Origin: Gammaproteobacteria bacterium
Lineage (GTDB): Bacteria > Pseudomonadota > Gammaproteobacteria > Ga0077536
Assembly (NCBI GenBank): GCA_041984235.1
Contig: JBHIYN010000016.1
Location: forward strand, 67,058-131,057
Direction of reading: 5' to 3'
DNA: 64,000 bases
The first letter of the stretch is position 1. Each line of letters begins with the position of its first letter. Under the pieces are notes generated by a model, which did not search any database, was not told the origin of the DNA, and saw only the letters and a program-made list of their open reading frames with translations. A program made the position numbers and the translations under genes. Positions 55,008 to 63,633 of this stretch are shown here, piece after piece.

Positions 55008-55460
55008 CGCGTCTCATGCGGCACAGGGCGGCGTTAATAATCGGCTCGGAATGCTCATGTACTGTTTGTACACTCCGCTTCCTCGCCGATTCTTGCCTTG
55101 CCCTGCACTCGCCTGAGTCACTTCATCGGCCACTCAACGAGCTAATCGATTGTCAGCACGTCTCAGACCGCACATGGCTGCGTTGAAAACCGGCTCGGAA
55201 TGCTCATGTACTGCGTGTACACTCCGCTTCCTCGCCGGTTTTCGCCTTGCCCTGCACGCTCTGAGCCGCACTGACAGCCGATTAGCCGAGTCGCCGCTGA
55301 AGCGTCTCAGTGCGCGCATGGCTGCGTTGAAAACCGACTCGGAATGCTCATGTACTGCGTGTACACTCCGCTTCCTCGCCGGTTTTCGCGTTGCCCTGCA
55401 CGCTCCGAGACGTGCTGACAACCGATTAGCCGAGCCGGCGGTGAGGCGCCTCGTTTCCGT
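55008..55460. repeat. three tandem ~140-160-bp intergenic repeats, each with a 10-bp-stem hairpin (GAAAACCGGC...GCCGGTTTTC)
   Basis: Units start at 55008, 55147 and 55309, each beginning CGTCTCA. Conserved core GGCTCGGAATGCTCATGTACTGCGTGTACACTCCGCTTCCTCGCC. The overlapping predicted ORFs on both strands are repeat artefacts. Confidence 0.7.
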
Positions 55461-55532
55461 AAGTGAAACTATACGGACCGCTACGCCGACACCGGCACCG
55501 CACTGGGTCAACGGGCAGGCGACGGAGCGAGC

Positions 55533-56819
55533 ATGAAAGTTCTCATCATTGGCGGCGGCGGGCGCGAGCATGCGCTGGCCTGGAAGTGCGCGCAGTCGCC
55601 GCTGGCGAGTGAGGTCCTGTGCGCGCCCGGCAACGCCGGCACCGCGCGTGAGGCGAAGGTGCGCAACGTGGACGTCGGCGCTGAGGACGTCGGTGCCTTG
55701 GTCGAGCTCGCCGAGCGCGAGGACGTCGGGCTGACCATCGTCGGACCCGAAGCGCCGCTCGCCGCGGGCGTGGTCGATGCCTTCATGCTCGCCGGCCGGC
55801 GCTGCTTCGGGCCGCCGCAGGCGGCCGCCGTGCTCGAGGCGTCCAAGGCTTACACCAAGGATTTTCTTAAACGCCACGGGATTCCGACCGGCGGCTACGC
55901 GACCTTCGAGGACCTGGACGCCGCGCTGGCGTACATCGAAGCGGGCCCCGAGCGCGTCGTCGTCAAGGCCGACGGCCTCGCCGCCGGCAAGGGCGTGGTG
56001 GTCGCCGCCTCGCGGGAGGAAGCGCAGCAGGCCGCGCGCGCCATGCTCGCCGAGAACAGCTTCGGCGCCGCCGGCAGCCGCATCGTCGTCGAGGAGTTCC
56101 TCGAAGGCGAGGAGGCGAGCTTCATCTGCATGTGCGACGGCGACACCGCGGTGCCGTTCGCCTCGTCCCAGGATCACAAGGCGCGCGACGACGGCGACCG
56201 CGGCCCCAACACCGGCGGCATGGGCGCCTACTCACCGGCGCCGATCGTGGACGAGGCCATGAGCGCACGCATCATGCGCGAGGTCATAGAGCCGACGCTC
56301 GCCGGCATGCGCGCCGACGGCCGGCCCTACCGCGGCTTCCTCTACGCCGGGCTCATGATCGGCGCAGACGGCGTGCCGAAGGTGCTCGAGTTCAACTGCC
56401 GCTTCGGCGATCCCGAGACGCAGCCGATCATGATGCGCCTGAAGACCGATCTCGTCGCCGCCTGCCTCGACCTGCTCGACGGCCGCGCCGCGGGCGTCGA
56501 GCTCGAGTTCGACCCGCGCGCCGCGCTCGGCGTGGTGCTCGCCGCCGGCGGCTACCCCGGCAGCTACGACAAGGGCGCGGTCATCGGCGGGCTGGACGCC
56601 GCGCAGCCGGACACCTACGTCTTCCACGCCGGCACCCGCCTCGAAGGCGAGGACTGCGTCACCGCCGGCGGCCGCGTGCTGTGCGTGGTCGGCCTCGGCG
56701 ACAGCGTCAGCGAAGCACAGGCCCGCGCCTATGCCCGCGTCGACACCATCCACTGGGACGGCATGGTCTGCCGGCGCGACATCGGCTACCGCGCGGTGGC
56801 GCGGGAGCGGGGCTGCTAG
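55533..56819 (+). CDS. purD: phosphoribosylamine-glycine ligase
   Basis: 428 aa, MKVLIIGGGGREHALAWK..., ATP-grasp. Confidence 0.95.
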   Translation: MKVLIIGGGGREHALAWKCAQSPLASEVLCAPGNAGTAREAKVRNVDVGAEDVGALVELAEREDVGLTIVGPEAPLAAGVVDAFMLAGRRCFGPPQAAAVLEASKAYTKDFLKRHGIPTGGYATFEDLDAALAYIEAGPERVVVKADGLAAGKGVVVAASREEAQQAARAMLAENSFGAAGSRIVVEEFLEGEEASFICMCDGDTAVPFASSQDHKARDDGDRGPNTGGMGAYSPAPIVDEAMSARIMREVIEPTLAGMRADGRPYRGFLYAGLMIGADGVPKVLEFNCRFGDPETQPIMMRLKTDLVAACLDLLDGRAAGVELEFDPRAALGVVLAAGGYPGSYDKGAVIGGLDAAQPDTYVFHAGTRLEGEDCVTAGGRVLCVVGLGDSVSEAQARAYARVDTIHWDGMVCRRDIGYRAVARERGC

Positions 56820-56828
56820 GCATCGAGC

Positions 56829-57821
56829 TCAGCGCTGGTCTTGGTCGCGGCGGCCGAGCACCGCCGACAGTGGGCTCTTCACGGCGAGGCCGCCGCGATT
56901 GAGCACATGCGTGTAGATCTGCGTGGTTCGAATATCCCGATGACCCAACTGTTCCTGCACCGTGCGGATATCGGCCCCGCGCTCCAGCAGGTGTGTCGCG
57001 AACGAGTGCCGCAGACTGTGGCAGGTTGCCGGCTTCTCGATTCGCGCGTCGAGAACCGCGCGACGCACCGCCCGTTGCACCCGCTGCTCGTCGAAATGAT
57101 GACGCCGCCGGCGTCCGCTGCGCGGATCGCGGGAGATGCGATCCGCAGGGAACACGTACTGCCAGCTCCACTCCGTTGCTGCGCGCGGATACTTGCGTTC
57201 CAGCGCGAAAGGCAACCACACCTCACCGCAACCGTTGGCGACGTCGCGGTCGAAGACGGTGCGCCGGTCTGCGAGGTGGCGCCGCAACGGCACGATGAGC
57301 TCATCCGGCAGCGTCACGACGCGATCCCGTCCGCCTTTCCCGTCCCGGACGAGGATCGCCCGATGCTCGAAATCCAGATCCTTTACCCGCAAACGAACGC
57401 TCTCCATCAAGCGCAGGCCGGAGCCATACTGCAGGCATGCGATGAGCCAGGCGGCCCGCTCGACGCGCAGCAGCACTTTCGTGACTTCCTCCACGGTGAG
57501 CACTACGGGTAGCCGTTCCGGTCGCTTCGCGCGAACGACGTTCGTCATCTCGTCGAGCGGCCGTTCGAGAACATGACGGTACAGGAAGACGAGGGCATTC
57601 AACGCCTGGTTCTGCGTCGCCGGCGCCACCTTACGTTGCAGCGCAAGGTGGGTGAGGAAGCGCTCGACTTCCGCAGAGCCCATCTCTTCCGGATGCCTGT
57701 TCCCGTGGAACCGGATAAAACGCTTCACCCAGTCGACGTAGCGCTGCTCCGTGCGGATACTGTAGTGGCGCATCCGGATCGCGGCGCGAACCCGCTGCAG
57801 GAATGGCGATGGTGGCGACAC
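56829..57821 (-). CDS. intI: integron integrase (IntI family tyrosine recombinase)
   Basis: 330 aa collinear with IntI1: [39 protein letters not shown], the integron-specific extra segment ALERKYPRA...[14 protein letters not shown], and [15 protein letters not shown] with catalytic Tyr. GTG start. Confidence 0.9.
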
Positions 57822-58828: not shown

Positions 58829-59518
58829 GTGCAGCAGCTAGACATCTCAGCGATAATGAGGTGGTCCCAGATTGGGAAGGTGCGATTCCCGTCTTCGGCG
58901 TCCATCATCTGCCCATATTGTGGCGAGAAGGGCGTTTTCTCCCTCACCAACCCAACGGACGACCCGCCGCGTCTAGCGCTTTCGGCAACTGCAGCGTGTC
59001 CAGGTTGCGGAAAACCGGTCCAATTCTGGTCGATACGAACCAAGAAAGCGCCGCCCGGCGATGCAGAAAATCCGATCGCCGTATATTTCTATCCGCCCAT
59101 AGAGAACCATTATCGGGTACCTGAATTCACGACAGATATCCCCGAACCGCTAAGTAGGTCATTCGTTTCGACCATCGATGCATATAACTCAAGAAATTAC
59201 GCAGCTACCGCAGTCTTATGCCGTCGAACGTTAGAAGGGATCTTTAAATATCTTCTGCCCCACGAAAAGCAAGATCTACCGCTTCACAAAGCAGTATCCG
59301 AGGTGCAGAACACTAAAGACCTTGCCGCGCCCTTGAACGCTTTGTCCCATGCAATTAGACAAGGCGGAAATCTTGGTGCGCATTTCGATATGGTCAAAGA
59401 GCCCGATGAGCAACTGGCGAAGAAAATGGTCGCATTACTCGAATATCTGATTACTTATCTCTATGAGTTGCCGGCCGAGATAGAACAAATAGAAAAAAGC
59501 CTAGAAAAAGATGCCTAA
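58829..59518 (+). CDS. cassette 2 ORF: zinc-ribbon plus DUF4145/HEPN-like domain protein (229 aa; start may be ATG 58856)
   Basis: N-terminal CPYCGEKG...CPGCGK. C-terminal segment with RRTLEGIFKYLLP...IRQGGNLGAHFD...LLEYLITYLYEL, matching DUF4145 architecture. Stop TAA embedded in the attC GCCTAAC core. Confidence 0.55.
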   Translation: MQQLDISAIMRWSQIGKVRFPSSASIICPYCGEKGVFSLTNPTDDPPRLALSATAACPGCGKPVQFWSIRTKKAPPGDAENPIAVYFYPPIENHYRVPEFTTDIPEPLSRSFVSTIDAYNSRNYAATAVLCRRTLEGIFKYLLPHEKQDLPLHKAVSEVQNTKDLAAPLNALSHAIRQGGNLGAHFDMVKEPDEQLAKKMVALLEYLITYLYELPAEIEQIEKSLEKDA

Positions 59519-59622
59519 CAAGCGGATCAACCTGACGTGTTACAGCGCGCTTCTCTCCTGCGGCTCCGCATTTTCGCTTCCGAGAAGCGCGCTGTAACAC
59601 GCAGGTTATCCGAGCGTTATAT
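59513..59622 (+). other. attC: attC site 2 (family A, ~110 bp)
   Basis: GCCTAACAAGCGGATCAACCTGACGTGTTACAGCGCGC...GCGCGCTGTAACACGCAGGTTATCCGAGCGTTATAT. Confidence 0.7.
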
Positions 59623-60864: not shown

Positions 60865-60974
60865 GCCTAACCAATGGATCAACCGGACGTGTTACAGCGC
60901 GCTTCCCTCCGGCGGCTTCGCATTTTCGCCTCCGCGAAGCGCGCTGTAACACGCCGGTTATCCAAGCGTTAGGC
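60865..60974 (+). other. attC: attC site 5 (family A)
   Basis: GCCTAACCAATGGATCAACCGGACGTGTTACAGCGCGC...GCGCGCTGTAACACGCCGGTTATCCAAGCGTTAGGC. Confidence 0.7.
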
Positions 60975-60980
60975 GCTCAG

Positions 60981-61529
60981 GTGCAACTCGAAACCGCCAT
61001 AAAGATAGTCACGTTCTTCGGAGGGACGGTGGGCGCGATATTCGGGGGTATAGCGCTACGAAACCTGCTTTTCCCAATCAGAATAATTCCTTCTTGGCAG
61101 CGCGTTTTCGACGGATCAGAACCGGACGCTATACAAGCACAAATAGTTAATCTCACGGACAAGCCTCTTGTGCTAGTTGCTTGCTCGGCGAAACCAACTT
61201 ATCGCCTTCGAACAATAATCACCCGACATCTCAAAAACCCGCTCACGCCGCGACGCCTATGGCCGAATATTCACTTCACCTCACAGTCCTTTCTGCTCCT
61301 TAACGAACCACAACGTAGACTCGAAGGAAAAGAGGTATTGGAACTAGAGCATAGGTTGTCGTCACACCCGCTTTCGTTTTTGATGGCGCCAATGTTTATC
61401 GTCGAAGTAACCTTGTCGACCGGACGAAAATTCAGATCACGCCGCATCACTGCGCCTGAGCGATGGCTGTTAATTAACAATCTTGATGAGGCTCGAAATC
61501 ATGATTCCCCGAATCAAACACGCGCCTAA
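60981..61529 (+). CDS. cassette 6 ORF: hypothetical protein with N-terminal TM helix (182 aa)
   Basis: GTG start right after attC 5. IVTFFGGTVGAIFGGIALRNLLF hydrophobic segment. Stop TAA inside the GCCTAAC of attC 6. Confidence 0.45.
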   Translation: MQLETAIKIVTFFGGTVGAIFGGIALRNLLFPIRIIPSWQRVFDGSEPDAIQAQIVNLTDKPLVLVACSAKPTYRLRTIITRHLKNPLTPRRLWPNIHFTSQSFLLLNEPQRRLEGKEVLELEHRLSSHPLSFLMAPMFIVEVTLSTGRKFRSRRITAPERWLLINNLDEARNHDSPNQTRA

Positions 61530-61641
61530 CAAGCGGATCAACCTGACGTGTTACAGCGGGCTTTTCTTACGTGGCTGCGCTATTTTCACTTCAGAAAAGC
61601 CCGCTGTAACACGCAGGTTATCCTGGCGTTGTGCGTCTGTA
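61524..61641 (+). other. attC: attC site 6 (family A)
   Basis: GCCTAACAAGCGGATCAACCTGACGTGTTACAGCGGGC...GCCCGCTGTAACACGCAGGTTATCCTGGCGTTGTGC. Confidence 0.65.
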
Positions 61642-61992
61642 GAGTCCGAGCACCAGCGACCGCCATCGGATCCGAACCTCTGCATGCGAATGGCTGAAGC
61701 CGAGGCTACACTCTGAGCAGGCCCGCGAGGCGAGCCACCGAAACCGAGTAGTCGCCCGAGGTTCAAGGATGAAACATCGCTTCAAAGTTAAAGCGGCGGT
61801 TGGCGAAGTGCGGTTCCAGCCGTTTGCTCGTCAATTACATCCAGGCGAGCATTTCCAAACGCACCATGGTCTTTCAGGTTGTCGAAATCGAGGCGCCGCT
61901 GCTGCCGCGCGGCTGCTGCACCCAGTAGCTGGCCGCACCGCCTCTGGCTTCCTGGCGTGGTCACTAGCCACGGCACATTTCTCAGCGCTGCC

Positions 61993-62102
61993 GCACAACA
62001 AGCGGGTGGAGTCGGACGCATTACAGCGGGCTTCCGCTCCGTGCCTGGCTATTGTCACTCCGCAGAAGCCCGCTGTAATGCGCCGCTCACCCGCGCGTTA
62101 GC
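61993..62102 (+). other. attC: attC site 7 (family A variant)
   Basis: GCACAACAAGCGGGTGGAGTCGGACGCATTACAGCGGGC...GCCCGCTGTAATGCGCCGCTCACCCGCGCGTTAGCG. Confidence 0.6.
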
Positions 62103-62119
62103 GTGATTGGAGGAATCCC

Positions 62120-62788
62120 ATGGCTAAGCCGCACCAAATATTCGTAGGCTGTCCATTTGGCCACCCGATCCGCAGGCATTACGACAAGCTTAAGCGCGAA
62201 GTCGAGAAAGAAACGCCTCTGCATATCGTGTTAGCGGATACGACCGCTGTTTCTTCTACCGATTATCTGCTGGAGCACATTACTAGCCTCATTCGTGACT
62301 CCGCGGGCTGCATCTTCGACGTAACTGGTGGCAATCCGAACGTCTCGCTTGAAGTGGGGATCGCACACGCCCTTCCCGCCGATTTCATTCTCGCTTTCTA
62401 CACGAGGAAAGCCCGAAGCCCTGCAGAGAAAGCACTCGCGGAGCAAGGTGAAACGAAGCCGATCATTTCGGATCTTCAAGGCCGCAACCGAATCGAATAC
62501 AAGCAATTTGCCGCACTTAAATCGCAACTCCTGGATCGCTATCTCACACGACTTCCGTACTACCAGCGGTGGCTGCGATTCAAGAAGTCGAACAGCTCAT
62601 ACGAGAAGTATGCTTTGCGGGTTTTCGATGAAATTAGAGATTCTGGCCGCACCCTGACATCTAGAGCATCGGTCGTGCTATCCGGCTCGGGCATAACTAC
62701 TTCCGACTTCGCGAAGGCACTCACGAAAGAGCGCCTAGTCACTATCAAATCGGGAAGGCAGGGTGGCTGGTATTACCCATCACGCTAA
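62120..62788 (+). CDS. cassette 8 ORF: nucleoside 2-deoxyribosyltransferase/TIR-fold-like protein (222 aa)
   Basis: IFVGCPFGH N-terminus and DVTGGNPNVSLEVGIAHALPADFILAF, which resembles the NDT-family D.G...E.G.A.A nucleotide-binding/catalytic segment. Plus a ~100-aa basic C-terminal extension. Stop TAA inside the attC CGCTAAC. Confidence 0.45.
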   Translation: MAKPHQIFVGCPFGHPIRRHYDKLKREVEKETPLHIVLADTTAVSSTDYLLEHITSLIRDSAGCIFDVTGGNPNVSLEVGIAHALPADFILAFYTRKARSPAEKALAEQGETKPIISDLQGRNRIEYKQFAALKSQLLDRYLTRLPYYQRWLRFKKSNSSYEKYALRVFDEIRDSGRTLTSRASVVLSGSGITTSDFAKALTKERLVTIKSGRQGGWYYPSR

Positions 62789-62878
62789 CAAACTGGTCAA
62801 CCGGACGCTTGACCGCTGGCTTCCTTCGCTACCGCTCCGGTCGCCAGCCGTCAAGCGCCGGTTACCAGAGCGTTAGAT
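62783..62878 (+). other. attC: attC site 8 (family B)
   Basis: CGCTAACAAACTGGTCAACCGGACGCTTGACCGC...CCGGTCGCCAGCCGTCAAGCGCCGGTTACCAGAGCGTTAGAT. Confidence 0.7.
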
Positions 62879-62885
62879 TGCAGTA

Positions 62886-63521
62886 ATGAGCTCGGTACTC
62901 AGCTTTGCGCTCTTCTTGTTAATCGGAGTCGTCTTCGGAAAAATAATTGTCTCCGTTGTTAACCTCATGCGAGGTCGACGGAGTACAGCCACCATGGCAT
63001 CCGACGCAGATGTTGCAGCAAACTTGGAACAACGACGCATCAATAACGCGATTGCGGACGCGTCGAACTTGTCCGACGAGCAATACGATGCGGCGCTCGA
63101 CGAGTTCGTCATCCCGTACGAGAACGCTGCGAATTATTTGGTCATAGATTGGCGAGAAGAAGACGATAAAGTCGTGGCAGCCTGCAGGAACGCTCTACTA
63201 GATGGATCTCAGGCCGAACTCAAATTTACATCTGTCGAGAACGATGATCATTGCTCTGCGACAGGCATCCTTAAGTATGGTGACAGATCTCTAGAAATAG
63301 AGATCCCTTTCTCACATAAAAGCCGATACATCCTATTAAGAGCAGTTAATCAAATTCTCTCGCCAGATTACGAAATCCGGCTGATTCGTCACTCCTTGGG
63401 CGGTGACACACATGAATTTATGCTCTTCTCCAGACAACAATGGAGCGAGATACAGAAAACAAGTGAACAATTAGTCAACGGATTGTTCGTCCCACTAACG
63501 GAACCGGTAGATTTCGAGTGA
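62886..63521 (+). CDS. cassette 9 ORF: hypothetical membrane-anchored protein (211 aa)
   Basis: N-terminal TM helix LSFALFLLIGVVFGKIIVSVV, then an acidic soluble domain. No recognisable family. Confidence 0.45.
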   Translation: MSSVLSFALFLLIGVVFGKIIVSVVNLMRGRRSTATMASDADVAANLEQRRINNAIADASNLSDEQYDAALDEFVIPYENAANYLVIDWREEDDKVVAACRNALLDGSQAELKFTSVENDDHCSATGILKYGDRSLEIEIPFSHKSRYILLRAVNQILSPDYEIRLIRHSLGGDTHEFMLFSRQQWSEIQKTSEQLVNGLFVPLTEPVDFE

Positions 63522-63535
63522 TCACCGGGATCTGC

Positions 63536-63633
63536 AATCTAACAAATCGTTCAACCGGACGCTTGACTGCCCGCTCCCTGCGCTGCCGCTCCGGTCGCGG
63601 TCCGTCAAGCGCCGGTTAACAGAAGCGTTGGGC
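63536..63633 (+). other. attC: attC site 9 (family B)
   Basis: ATCTAACAAATCGTTCAACCGGACGCTTGACTGC...CGGTCGCGGTCCGTCAAGCGCCGGTTAACAGAAGCGTTGGGC. Confidence 0.7.

What the first reader, a model, noticed from the sequence alone, without database searches (positions are those of the whole stretch)
62097..62878. Cassette 8: NDT/TIR-fold-like protein with a basic C-terminal extension
The IFVGCPFGH start and the segment DVTGGNPNVSLEVGIAHALPADFILAF resemble the nucleoside 2-deoxyribosyltransferase (D.G...E.G.A.A) fold. That fold belongs to the same superfamily as TIR and SLOG domains used by defence systems to cleave NAD+ or process nucleotides. A solitary, cassette-borne version fused to a ~100-aa Lys/Arg-rich tail is not a described system. 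It could be a nucleotide-depleting or N-glycosidase effector.
Basis: inference. Interest (0 to 1): 0.7.

Follow-up and report, generated by a model that had tools for sequence, protein, structure and literature searches.

The report
Stand-alone TIR-like enzyme with winged helix
This integron cassette carries one conserved, unannotated gene that joins a TIR/NDT-type catalytic domain (the kind bacterial immune effectors use to destroy NAD+) to a strongly basic winged-helix domain; it is probably a self-contained anti-phage suicide effector, but its function is untested.

Summary
ORF 62120..62788 (+, 222 aa) lies between two attC sites in a cassette array. The array starts at an intI gene (56829..57821, -).

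The gene is real. There are 344 homologues, almost all full length, from at least eight phyla. Synonymous sites are saturated and dN/dS is about 0.12.

- **Conserved residues:** D67, V75, E78 and G80 are invariant in 68 distant relatives. N74 and D118 are nearly so. A weak profile alignment places N74, E78 and D118 on SfSTING N80, E84 (catalytic) and D110 (completes the active site in trans).
- **Family link:** distant relatives hit the CBASS TIR effector model (40 of 68) and Pfam PF10137 (28 of 68).
- **C-terminal part:** the "basic tail" is folded. It is a helical linker plus a winged-helix domain (pLDDT 91, net charge +12).
- **Partners:** no neighbouring gene is conserved across 27 loci. 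There is no cyclase and no retron.

Best reading: a single-gene, oligomerisation-activated NADase whose winged helix acts as sensor. I rate it a new variant of a known kind. Function is inferred, not shown.

The parts
61993..62103 (+). Upstream attC, which belongs to the preceding ORF-less cassette. The R' box GTTAGCG is at 62097-62103, and the target cassette starts at T62098.
   Evidence: Imperfect palindrome with arms 62017-62037 and 62062-62082 (95% complementary), plus outer arms 61997-62008 and 62088-62099. attC-like score 13.0 against a null maximum of 7.0.
62109..62114 (+). Shine-Dalgarno-like GGAGGA, 5 nt before the ATG.
   Evidence: Read directly from the sequence. No sigma-70-like promoter was found in 61500-63000.
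62120..62788 (+). Coding sequence of 222 aa: a TIR/NDT-like domain followed by a winged-helix domain.
   Evidence: ORF list. 344 homologues, nearly all full length. Purifying selection. AlphaFold2 pLDDT 85, pTM 0.81.
62120..62500 (+). Residues 1-127: TIR/NDT-like flavodoxin-fold catalytic domain with alternating strands and helices (bA-aA-bB-aB-bC-aC-bD-aD-bE).
62333..62365 (+). Residues 72-82, NPNVSLEVGIA: the predicted active-site motif. The putative catalytic Glu78 is at 62351-62353.
   Evidence: V75, E78 and G80 are invariant. N74, L77 and A82 are at least 90% conserved in 68 distant relatives. The motif aligns with RDNVVFEFG of SfSTING (R78, N80, E84) and NVHLEFG of PycTIR (residue roles from PMC9402430).
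62471..62473 (+). Asp118, in the ISDLQG loop, which is predicted with low confidence.
   Evidence: Conserved in 66 of 68 distant relatives. Aligns with SfSTING D110, which enters the partner's active site in the filament. pLDDT is 51-56 for residues 101-120.
62501..62593 (+). Residues 128-158: basic two-helix linker.
   Evidence: Helices 130-144 and 146-157 with pLDDT above 90. Net charge +7, family mean +6.8.
62594..62785 (+). Residues 159-222: winged-helix (wHTH) domain with topology H1-S1-H2-H3-S2-wing-S3 and a conserved wing, KxGRxGGxYYP.
62783..62878 (+). The cassette's own attC. R'' is CGCTAAC and overlaps the TAA stop codon. R' is GTTAGAT at 62872-62878.
   Evidence: Arms 62806-62820 and 62843-62857 are 93% complementary. 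attC-like score 12.5.

Best explanation
The cassette encodes a self-contained two-domain effector.

- **Catalytic domain (residues 1-127).** This is a TIR-type N-glycosidase of the CAP12/PycTIR kind. Glu78 would be the catalytic residue and Asn74 would bind the ribose or phosphate. Asp118 sits on a flexible loop and would complete a neighbouring subunit's active site. The enzyme should therefore be active only when subunits pack together. The most likely substrate is NAD(P)+.
- **Sensor or scaffold (residues 128-222).** This is a strongly basic helical linker plus winged-helix domain. It occupies the place that STING, SAVED or cNMP-binding domains hold in CBASS and Pycsar effectors. No cyclase or other partner gene is conserved, so the winged helix most likely senses an invader cue directly. 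The likeliest cue is nucleic acid. Binding would drive oligomerisation, NAD+ depletion and abortive infection.

Shown here: the fold, the conserved motif, the domain architecture, the solitary and cassette-borne context, and purifying selection. Inferred: catalysis, substrate, trigger and the defence role.
For: - **Motif.** D67, V75, E78 and G80 are invariant, and F8, N74, L77, A82 and D118 are at least 90% conserved, in 68 relatives of 20-53% identity.
- **Transitive homology.** The close-family profile finds these relatives at E 1e-7 to 1e-27. Of them, 40 of 68 hit the PADLOC CBASS "Effector TIR" model (best 5e-11), 28 of 68 hit PF10137 (two above the gathering score), and 6 hit PycTIR.
- **Residue equivalences.** The profile-to-PDB alignment places N72, N74, E78 and D118 on SfSTING R78, N80, E84 and D110. 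Their roles in NAD+ binding, catalysis and in-trans completion are published (PMC9402430).
- **Flexible loops.** The BB-loop-like segment (residues 41-50) and the D118 loop are conserved but modelled with low confidence, as expected for regulated loops.
- **C-terminal domain.** It is a winged helix with a conserved net charge of about +12.
- **Solitary gene.** No neighbour family occurs in more than 3 of 27 loci.
- **Context.** attC-like flanks occur in 7-10 of 24 loci. DUF4145 and Abi_alpha cassettes sit in the same array. Relatives lie beside a prophage, in a SEFIR/TIR_2/PemK island, and next to a GHKL ATPase.
- **Precedent.** The Retron-Eco1 effector combines an NDT-like domain with a wHTH, binds msDNA and hydrolyses NAD(P)+.
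Against: - No model in Pfam, NCBIfam or PADLOC hits the protein itself. The close-family profile alone finds no TIR in the PDB.
- The alignments that give the residue equivalences are weak on their own: PycTIR E 0.014 and SfSTING E 0.18.
- The N-terminal FxGCPF motif and the Foldseek ranking look as much like NDT/DNPH1 as like TIR. The substrate could therefore be a nucleotide other than NAD+.
- The putative recognition helix of the winged helix (residues 194-203) is variable and partly acidic. This argues against sequence-specific DNA binding and leaves the ligand open.
- No experiment links this family to phage defence, and many integron cassettes are not defence genes.
- No homologue was found in the phage or plasmid collections.
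Confidence: 0.48

Rival explanations
1. It is an NDT, DNPH1 or MilB-like nucleotide or nucleoside N-glycosidase or transferase, not an NADase. It would hydrolyse (d)NMPs, modified nucleotides such as hm-dCMP or hm-dUMP, or bases in DNA. The basic winged helix would tether it to DNA. The role could be defence against phages with modified DNA, or nucleotide salvage and detoxification.
For: - The N-terminal FVGCPF resembles the NDT YFAGxxF loop, and the D..G......E.G.A spacing matches L. leichmannii NDT D72, D92 and E98. Both comparisons are from my own knowledge of the NDT sequence.
- 6 of 68 relatives hit PF05014, and 1 hits the retron NDT_II-A model.
Against: - Many more relatives hit TIR NADase models (40 and 28 of 68) than NDT models (6).
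- The D118 equivalent to SfSTING D110 and the N-x-N-V-x-L-E motif match CAP12-type TIRs.
- The NDT acidic pair is replaced by Asn72 and Asn74.
Confidence: 0.2
2. It is a ligand-sensing transcription factor. The Rossmann-like N-domain would only bind a nucleotide, as CARF does in Csa3, and the winged helix would bind an operator to regulate genes.
For: - The winged-helix fold resembles ArsR, MarR and Fur-type regulators.
- 2-3 relatives hit Csa3 or CasR models through their wHTH.
- The domain order matches sensor-plus-wHTH regulators.
Against: - The catalytic-type Glu, Asn and Asp are invariant across relatives of 20-30% identity. That fits catalysis better than simple binding.
- The recognition helix is the least conserved part of the wHTH.
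- The gene moves as a promoter-less single cassette into unrelated genomes. It has no conserved target or neighbour.
Confidence: 0.12
3. It is a ThsB-like signal-producing TIR. It would make a cyclic-ADPR-type or related messenger for an effector encoded elsewhere in the genome.
Against: - No partner gene is conserved in 27 loci across at least eight phyla.
- A cassette that hops between phyla cannot rely on a resident receptor.
- Sequence affinity is to effector-type CAP12/PycTIR TIRs and not to PF08937.
Confidence: 0.07
4. It is a catalytically dead scaffold, or a gene with a role unrelated to conflict. Its presence in the integron would be incidental.
For: Most integron cassettes have unknown functions. 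No experimental data exist for this family. No defence model hits the protein itself.
Against: Purifying selection is strong over the full length. The active-site-type residues are invariant. The context is repeatedly mobile or defence-like.
Confidence: 0.1

Closest known systems
CBASS and Pycsar TIR effectors (CAP12/TIR-STING, TIR-SAVED, PycTIR; Pfam PF10137; PADLOC PDLC00733 and PycTIR)
   Same: The catalytic domain is of the same kind. The motif N-V-x-[LF]-E-x-G and the downstream D-L-x-G align. Relatives of the target hit these models. Both pair one TIR with one sensor domain on a single polypeptide. The likely activation logic, oligomerisation that completes the active site in trans, is also shared (PMC9402430).
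   Different: The sensor is a basic winged helix, not STING, SAVED or a cNMP-binding domain. The TIR is N-terminal, as in TIR-STING but unlike PycTIR. No CD-NTase or pyrimidine cyclase is nearby. The target's own sequence falls below every model's reporting threshold.
Retron type II-A effector (Retron-Eco1/Ec86 and Sen2; "retron St85 family effector"): NDT-like N-glycosidase plus C-terminal winged helix
   Same: The two-domain order is the same: an NDT/TIR-fold N-glycosidase followed by a wHTH. The retron effector binds DNA (msDNA), forms filaments and hydrolyses NAD(P)+.
   Different: No sequence similarity is detectable: BLASTP E 2.0 and hhalign probability 0.3%. The retron protein is 307 aa against 222 aa. 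There is no reverse transcriptase or msr/msd next to the target or its homologues. The retron effector hits PF15891 and not PF10137.
Nucleoside 2-deoxyribosyltransferase family (NDT, DNPH1/Rcl, MilB, BcmB)
   Same: The fold is the same, and the Glu lies at the start of the helix that follows the third strand. A few relatives hit PF05014 weakly.
   Different: Sequence identity is 11-20%. The acidic residues that bind the sugar in NDTs are Asn here. These enzymes are stand-alone, without a wHTH, and work in metabolism or antibiotic biosynthesis.
PADLOC candidate system PDC-S35
   Same: 16 hits from distant relatives to its two models, through the TIR-like motif. It is a single-gene candidate of similar length, with a profile of 231 positions.
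   Different: The matching motif lies at profile positions 161-211, in the C-terminal half, so the domain order differs. The target and its close family do not hit it. No published mechanism is known to me.

Membership tests
TIR superfamily, CAP12/PycTIR type (PF10137) | Flavodoxin-like five-stranded TIR fold. | tested here: met
TIR superfamily, CAP12/PycTIR type (PF10137) | Conserved catalytic Glu in helix aC, within the N-V-x-[LF]-E-x-G motif. | tested here: met
   E78 is invariant in 45 close and 68 distant relatives. It aligns with SfSTING E84 and the PycTIR NVHLEFG motif.
TIR superfamily, CAP12/PycTIR type (PF10137) | A significant match to the family's sequence model. | tested here: inconclusive
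   The target gives no hit even at E<=10. Among distant relatives, 28 of 68 hit PF10137, and two exceed the gathering score of 24.7 bits (26.8 and 25.3 bits). The link is therefore transitive only.
TIR superfamily, CAP12/PycTIR type (PF10137) | NAD+ glycohydrolase activity that depends on oligomerisation. | not testable with these tools
   This needs an enzyme assay. The only indirect support is the conservation of the D118 equivalent to SfSTING D110.
CBASS or Pycsar system | An adjacent CD-NTase or pyrimidine cyclase that makes the activating nucleotide. | tested here: not met
   No neighbour family is shared by more than 3 of 27 loci. The window neighbours are unrelated single-gene cassettes.
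Retron type II-A effector (NDT-like plus wHTH) | Sequence homology to the St85/Ec86 effector family. | tested here: not met
   BLASTP E 2.0. hhalign of A2 against the Ec86 effector gives probability 0.3%. Only 1 of 68 relatives hits the NDT_II-A model, at E 0.0017.
Retron type II-A effector (NDT-like plus wHTH) | An adjacent retron reverse transcriptase and msr/msd ncRNA. | tested here: not met
   Rfam finds no RNA family anywhere in the window. No conserved neighbour exists. The flanking genes are cassettes without RT domains.
Retron type II-A effector (NDT-like plus wHTH) | Domain order: N-terminal NDT-like domain, C-terminal winged helix. | tested here: met
   for the target. for the retron effector.
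Nucleoside 2-deoxyribosyltransferase (PF05014) | NDT fold with a nucleophilic Glu after strand 3. | tested here: met
Nucleoside 2-deoxyribosyltransferase (PF05014) | A match to the family model above its cut-off. | tested here: not met
   The target gives no hit. 6 of 68 relatives hit it, best E 2.5e-4, all below the 28.8-bit cut-off.
SLOG/LOG superfamily | LOG-type Rossmann fold and the PGGxGTxxE motif. | tested here: not met
Integron gene cassette | A single promoter-less ORF bounded by attC sites with R''/R' boxes and an imperfect palindrome, in an array next to intI. | tested here: met
   attC sites at 61993-62103 and 62783-62878. intI at 56829-57821. No sigma-70-like promoter. Homologues in other phyla show attC-like flanks, with R' 17-23 nt before the ATG.
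Winged-helix (wHTH) domain | H1-S1-H2-H3-S2-wing-S3 topology. | tested here: met
Winged-helix (wHTH) domain | Nucleic-acid binding. | not testable with these tools
   The only support is a conserved net charge of about +12 and a basic wing, KRGRxGG. The recognition helix is variable.

The most novel reading that the evidence does not exclude
This would be a one-protein nucleic-acid sensor and executioner. The basic winged helix would bind invading or aberrant DNA or RNA directly and without sequence specificity. It would line up copies of the protein along that nucleic acid, so that Asp118 of one TIR completes the active site of the next and switches on NAD+ destruction. That would be a TIR immune effector activated by nucleic-acid-templated polymerisation, with no second messenger, Argonaute guide or retron DNA. 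It would also be packaged as a roughly 780-bp integron cassette that works in at least eight bacterial phyla.
Probability: 0.22. Interest if true: 0.75.

Novelty: new variant of a known kind. Interest (0 to 1): 0.55.

Why it matters
Integrons were shown in 2025 to store anti-phage genes (papers cited in the reference list seen). Even so, most environmental cassettes have no assigned function.

This cassette gene is unusually well conserved. Homologues are 57-83% identical across Planctomycetota, Acidobacteriota, Gemmatimonadota, Chloroflexota, Proteobacteria, Actinomycetes and other phyla. It is also invisible to current Pfam, NCBIfam and PADLOC models.

If it is an autonomous TIR NADase with a winged-helix sensor, three things would follow:
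- It would add a minimal 222-aa architecture to TIR immunity.
- It would show that TIR effectors can be uncoupled from cyclic-nucleotide signalling by swapping the sensor domain.
- It would give a small, portable system for studying how TIR active sites are assembled in trans.

It would also supply a profile for annotating several hundred "hypothetical proteins".

Tried and rejected
- **Direct searches with the single sequence.** Pfam, NCBIfam, PADLOC and PDB searches gave nothing useful. PHROGs gave only a marginal hit to a family of unknown function. The close-family profile against the PDB gave only spurious RAD50 and L36 hits. P0163 against the PDB also gave nothing.
- **Retron effector membership: rejected.** I located Ec86 in E. 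coli from its ncRNA, which I supplied from memory, and extracted the effector. I found no similarity to it and no RT nearby.
- **A conserved partner gene: rejected.** This covers a two-cassette system, a cyclase, an antitoxin and DUF4145. The downstream genes are unrelated to one another. All-against-all clustering of 850 neighbouring ORFs found nothing shared.
- **SLOG/LOG: rejected** on fold ranking and Pfam hits.
- **Phage or plasmid carriage:** no tblastn hit in either collection.
- **Structured RNA in the window:** none at Rfam gathering scores.
- **An internal promoter:** none by the consensus scan. That scan covers only sigma-70-type sites.
- **Literature:** searches for a described TIR-plus-winged-helix single-gene system found none. 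The library is incomplete, so this is not proof of absence.
- **Not possible:** I could not inspect model coordinates or PAE. The geometry of E78, D118 and the TIR/winged-helix interface is therefore untested.

Full report
**1. What is there**

ORF 62120..62788 (+) encodes 222 aa. A GGAGGA ribosome-binding site lies 5 nt upstream. The gene sits between two attC sites:
- 61993-62103, with R' GTTAGCG at 62097-62103.
- 62783-62878, with R'' CGCTAAC overlapping the stop codon and R' GTTAGAT at 62872-62878.

Both attC sites are long imperfect palindromes. In a crude attC scan they scored 13.0 and 12.5, against a null 95th percentile of 3.0 and a null maximum of 7.0.

An integron integrase lies at 56829..57821 (-), next to dusB-fis-purH-purD. 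It carries Phage_int_SAM_4 and Phage_integrase domains, at E 1e-33 and 7e-36. The cassette array has about 53% GC in a host of about 70% GC. By my count this is the seventh cassette.

**2. The gene is real and widespread**

A search of 5.8 billion proteins gave 344 hits at E<=1e-3. The best 120 are 57-100% identical and nearly all are full length, at about 224 aa. None carries a Pfam domain or an informative name.

A scan of one genome per species found 24 loci. They come from Planctomycetota, Acidobacteriota, Gemmatimonadota, Anaerolineales, Beta- and Gammaproteobacteria, Actinomycetes, Aminicenantes and Eisenbacteria.

Against 13 homologues, pN is 0.20-0.36 while pS is 0.73-0.90. Synonymous sites are thus saturated, and dN/dS is about 0.12 where it can be computed. 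The family was not found in the phage or plasmid collections.

**3. N-terminal domain (residues 1-127)**

The protein itself hits nothing in Pfam, NCBIfam, PADLOC or the PDB by sequence.

An AlphaFold2 model built on 45 homologues has pLDDT 85 and pTM 0.81. Residues 1-127 form a five-stranded flavodoxin-like domain.
- Foldseek ranks NDTs, RPS4 TIR, DNPH1 and BcmB at E 7e-5 to 1e-3.
- No LOG or SLOG structure appears in either list.

An exhaustive profile search of 1.84 billion cluster representatives found 450 relatives. Many are 220-250 aa with the same two-domain layout.

In an alignment of 68 of them (20-53% identical to the target), D67, V75, E78 and G80 are invariant. F8, N74, L77, A82 and D118 are at least 90% conserved.

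These relatives hit known TIR models:

| Model | Relatives hitting (of 68) | Note |
|---|---|---|
| PADLOC CBASS "Effector TIR" (PDLC00733) | 40 | best E 5e-11 |
| Pfam PF10137 (CAP12/Pycsar TIR) | 28 | two above the gathering score |
| PADLOC PycTIR | 6 | |
| Pfam PF05014 (NDT) | 6 | all below the cut-off |
| PADLOC NDT_II-A (retron) | 1 | E 0.0017 |

**4. Residue equivalences with SfSTING**

A profile of the 68 relatives searched against PDB sequences gives PycTIR (8jsj, E 0.014) and CAP12/SfSTING (7un8, E 0.18).

The SfSTING alignment places NPNVsLElG on RDNVVFEFG, and psDLkG on PTDLDG. Chain numbering is native numbering plus 8. The fit of R78, N80 and E84 supports that offset. The equivalences are then:

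| Target residue | SfSTING residue | Published role in SfSTING (PMC9402430) |
|---|---|---|
| N72 | R78 | binds the NAD+ phosphodiester or ribose |
| N74 | N80 | binds the NAD+ phosphodiester or ribose |
| E78 | E84 | catalytic glutamate |
| D118 | D110 | supplied by the opposite TIR in the filament to complete the active site |

These alignments are weak on their own. I treat the equivalences as well-motivated inference and not as proof.

Two loops fit the picture of mobile, regulated elements: the D118 loop (residues 101-120) and the BB-loop-like segment (residues 41-50). Both are strongly conserved in the close family, yet their pLDDT is only 51-60.

**5. C-terminal part (residues 128-222)**

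This region is as conserved as the enzyme domain. A separate model of residues 127-222 has pLDDT 91. It has two helices followed by an H1-S1-H2-H3-S2-wing-S3 unit.

The region carries net charge +12, with a family mean of +12.8 and pI 10.8. The enzyme domain has net charge -1. The wing KRGRxGGxYYP is conserved. The putative recognition helix (residues 194-203) is variable.

So the "basic tail" is a folded, probably nucleic-acid-binding winged helix that is unlikely to read a specific sequence.

**6. Genomic context**

- No neighbouring ORF family is shared by more than 3 of 27 loci. The genes downstream of different homologues are unrelated. The gene works alone, or with ubiquitous host factors.
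- About 7-10 of 24 distinct loci show attC-like flanks. R' lies 17-23 nt before the ATG, as in the window.
- Other homologues lie beside a prophage and a DUF4145 gene, or after a barstar gene near a transposase.
- Distant relatives with the same architecture sit in a SEFIR/TIR_2/PemK island, or 19 nt downstream of a GHKL ATPase.
- The same integron also carries a DUF4145 cassette, an Abi_alpha cassette, and a second, distant paralogue of the enzyme domain.
- There is no sigma-70-like promoter in the cassette and no Rfam RNA in the window.

**7. Mechanism**

The best-supported model is a single-polypeptide, oligomerisation-gated TIR-type N-glycosidase, most likely an NAD(P)+ hydrolase. Its sensor or scaffold is a basic winged helix, in place of the STING, SAVED or cNMP-binding modules of CBASS and Pycsar effectors.

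No signal-making enzyme travels with it. The trigger is therefore probably sensed directly, and nucleic acid is the obvious candidate.

A precedent for pairing an NDT-like domain with a wHTH exists in the Retron-Eco1 effector. That protein binds msDNA, forms filaments and hydrolyses NAD(P)+. It is not homologous at the sequence level, and no retron is present here.

Rival readings are listed with their odds in the rival explanations. They are an NDT/DNPH1-like nucleotide hydrolase, a Csa3-like ligand-sensing regulator, a ThsB-like signal synthase, and a gene with a role unrelated to conflict.

**8. Verdict**

The finding is best described as a new variant of a known kind. It is a TIR/NDT-superfamily effector domain in a previously undescribed stand-alone fusion with a winged helix, carried on an integron cassette. 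Current annotation resources miss it. Function, substrate and trigger remain untested.

I score interest at 0.55.

Noticed in passing
L001:12934-13662 (same integron, about 2.3 kb beyond the window's right end): A second cassette in the same array encodes a 242-aa distant paralogue of the target's enzyme domain (GYPF...FDTSGGNPNVSFELGLA...ADL). hhalign gives probability 99.6% and E 7e-24 against the superfamily alignment. The match covers residues 13-144 only, and the C-terminus is different.
   Followed up: partly
window 58829-59518 (+), and L001:14374-15054: Other cassettes of the array are defence-type genes. One is a zinc-ribbon plus DUF4145 protein (E 3.7e-8). The other is an Abi_alpha (abortive infection) protein (E 9e-19). 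A DUF4145 gene also lies directly downstream of a homologue of the target in an alphaproteobacterial contig, next to a prophage.
   Followed up: partly
window 61630-62097: The cassette just upstream of the target, about 470 bp between two attC sites, has no convincing ORF. Its only long ORF is 110 aa and runs into the attC. It could be a non-coding or small-peptide cassette.
   Followed up: no
window 59536-59601, 60888-60953, 61547-61613 and 62017-62082, compared with 62806-62857 and 63560-63611: Four attC sites share the core CGTGTTACAGCGSGCTT. The target's own attC and the next one share a different core, CGCTTGAC. This suggests two attC lineages, and so two cassette sources, within one array.
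   Followed up: no
L034:288-2729 (and L035): A distant relative with the same TIR-plus-winged-helix architecture (P0163, 221 aa) lies 19 nt downstream of a 585-aa GHKL ATPase (HATPase_c_3). This could be a two-gene variant of the system.
   Followed up: no
window 55150-55536 (purH-purD intergenic region): A direct repeat of about two copies shows up as a repeated peptide in a spurious ORF. GC dips to 0.59 in a 70% GC genome. It may be a REP-like or other intergenic repeat element.
   Followed up: no
window 62886-63521 (+): The next cassette encodes a 211-aa protein with a hydrophobic N-terminal segment (SFALFLLIGVVFGKIIVSVV). It has no Pfam hit and no relation to the genes downstream of the target's homologues.
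   Followed up: partly
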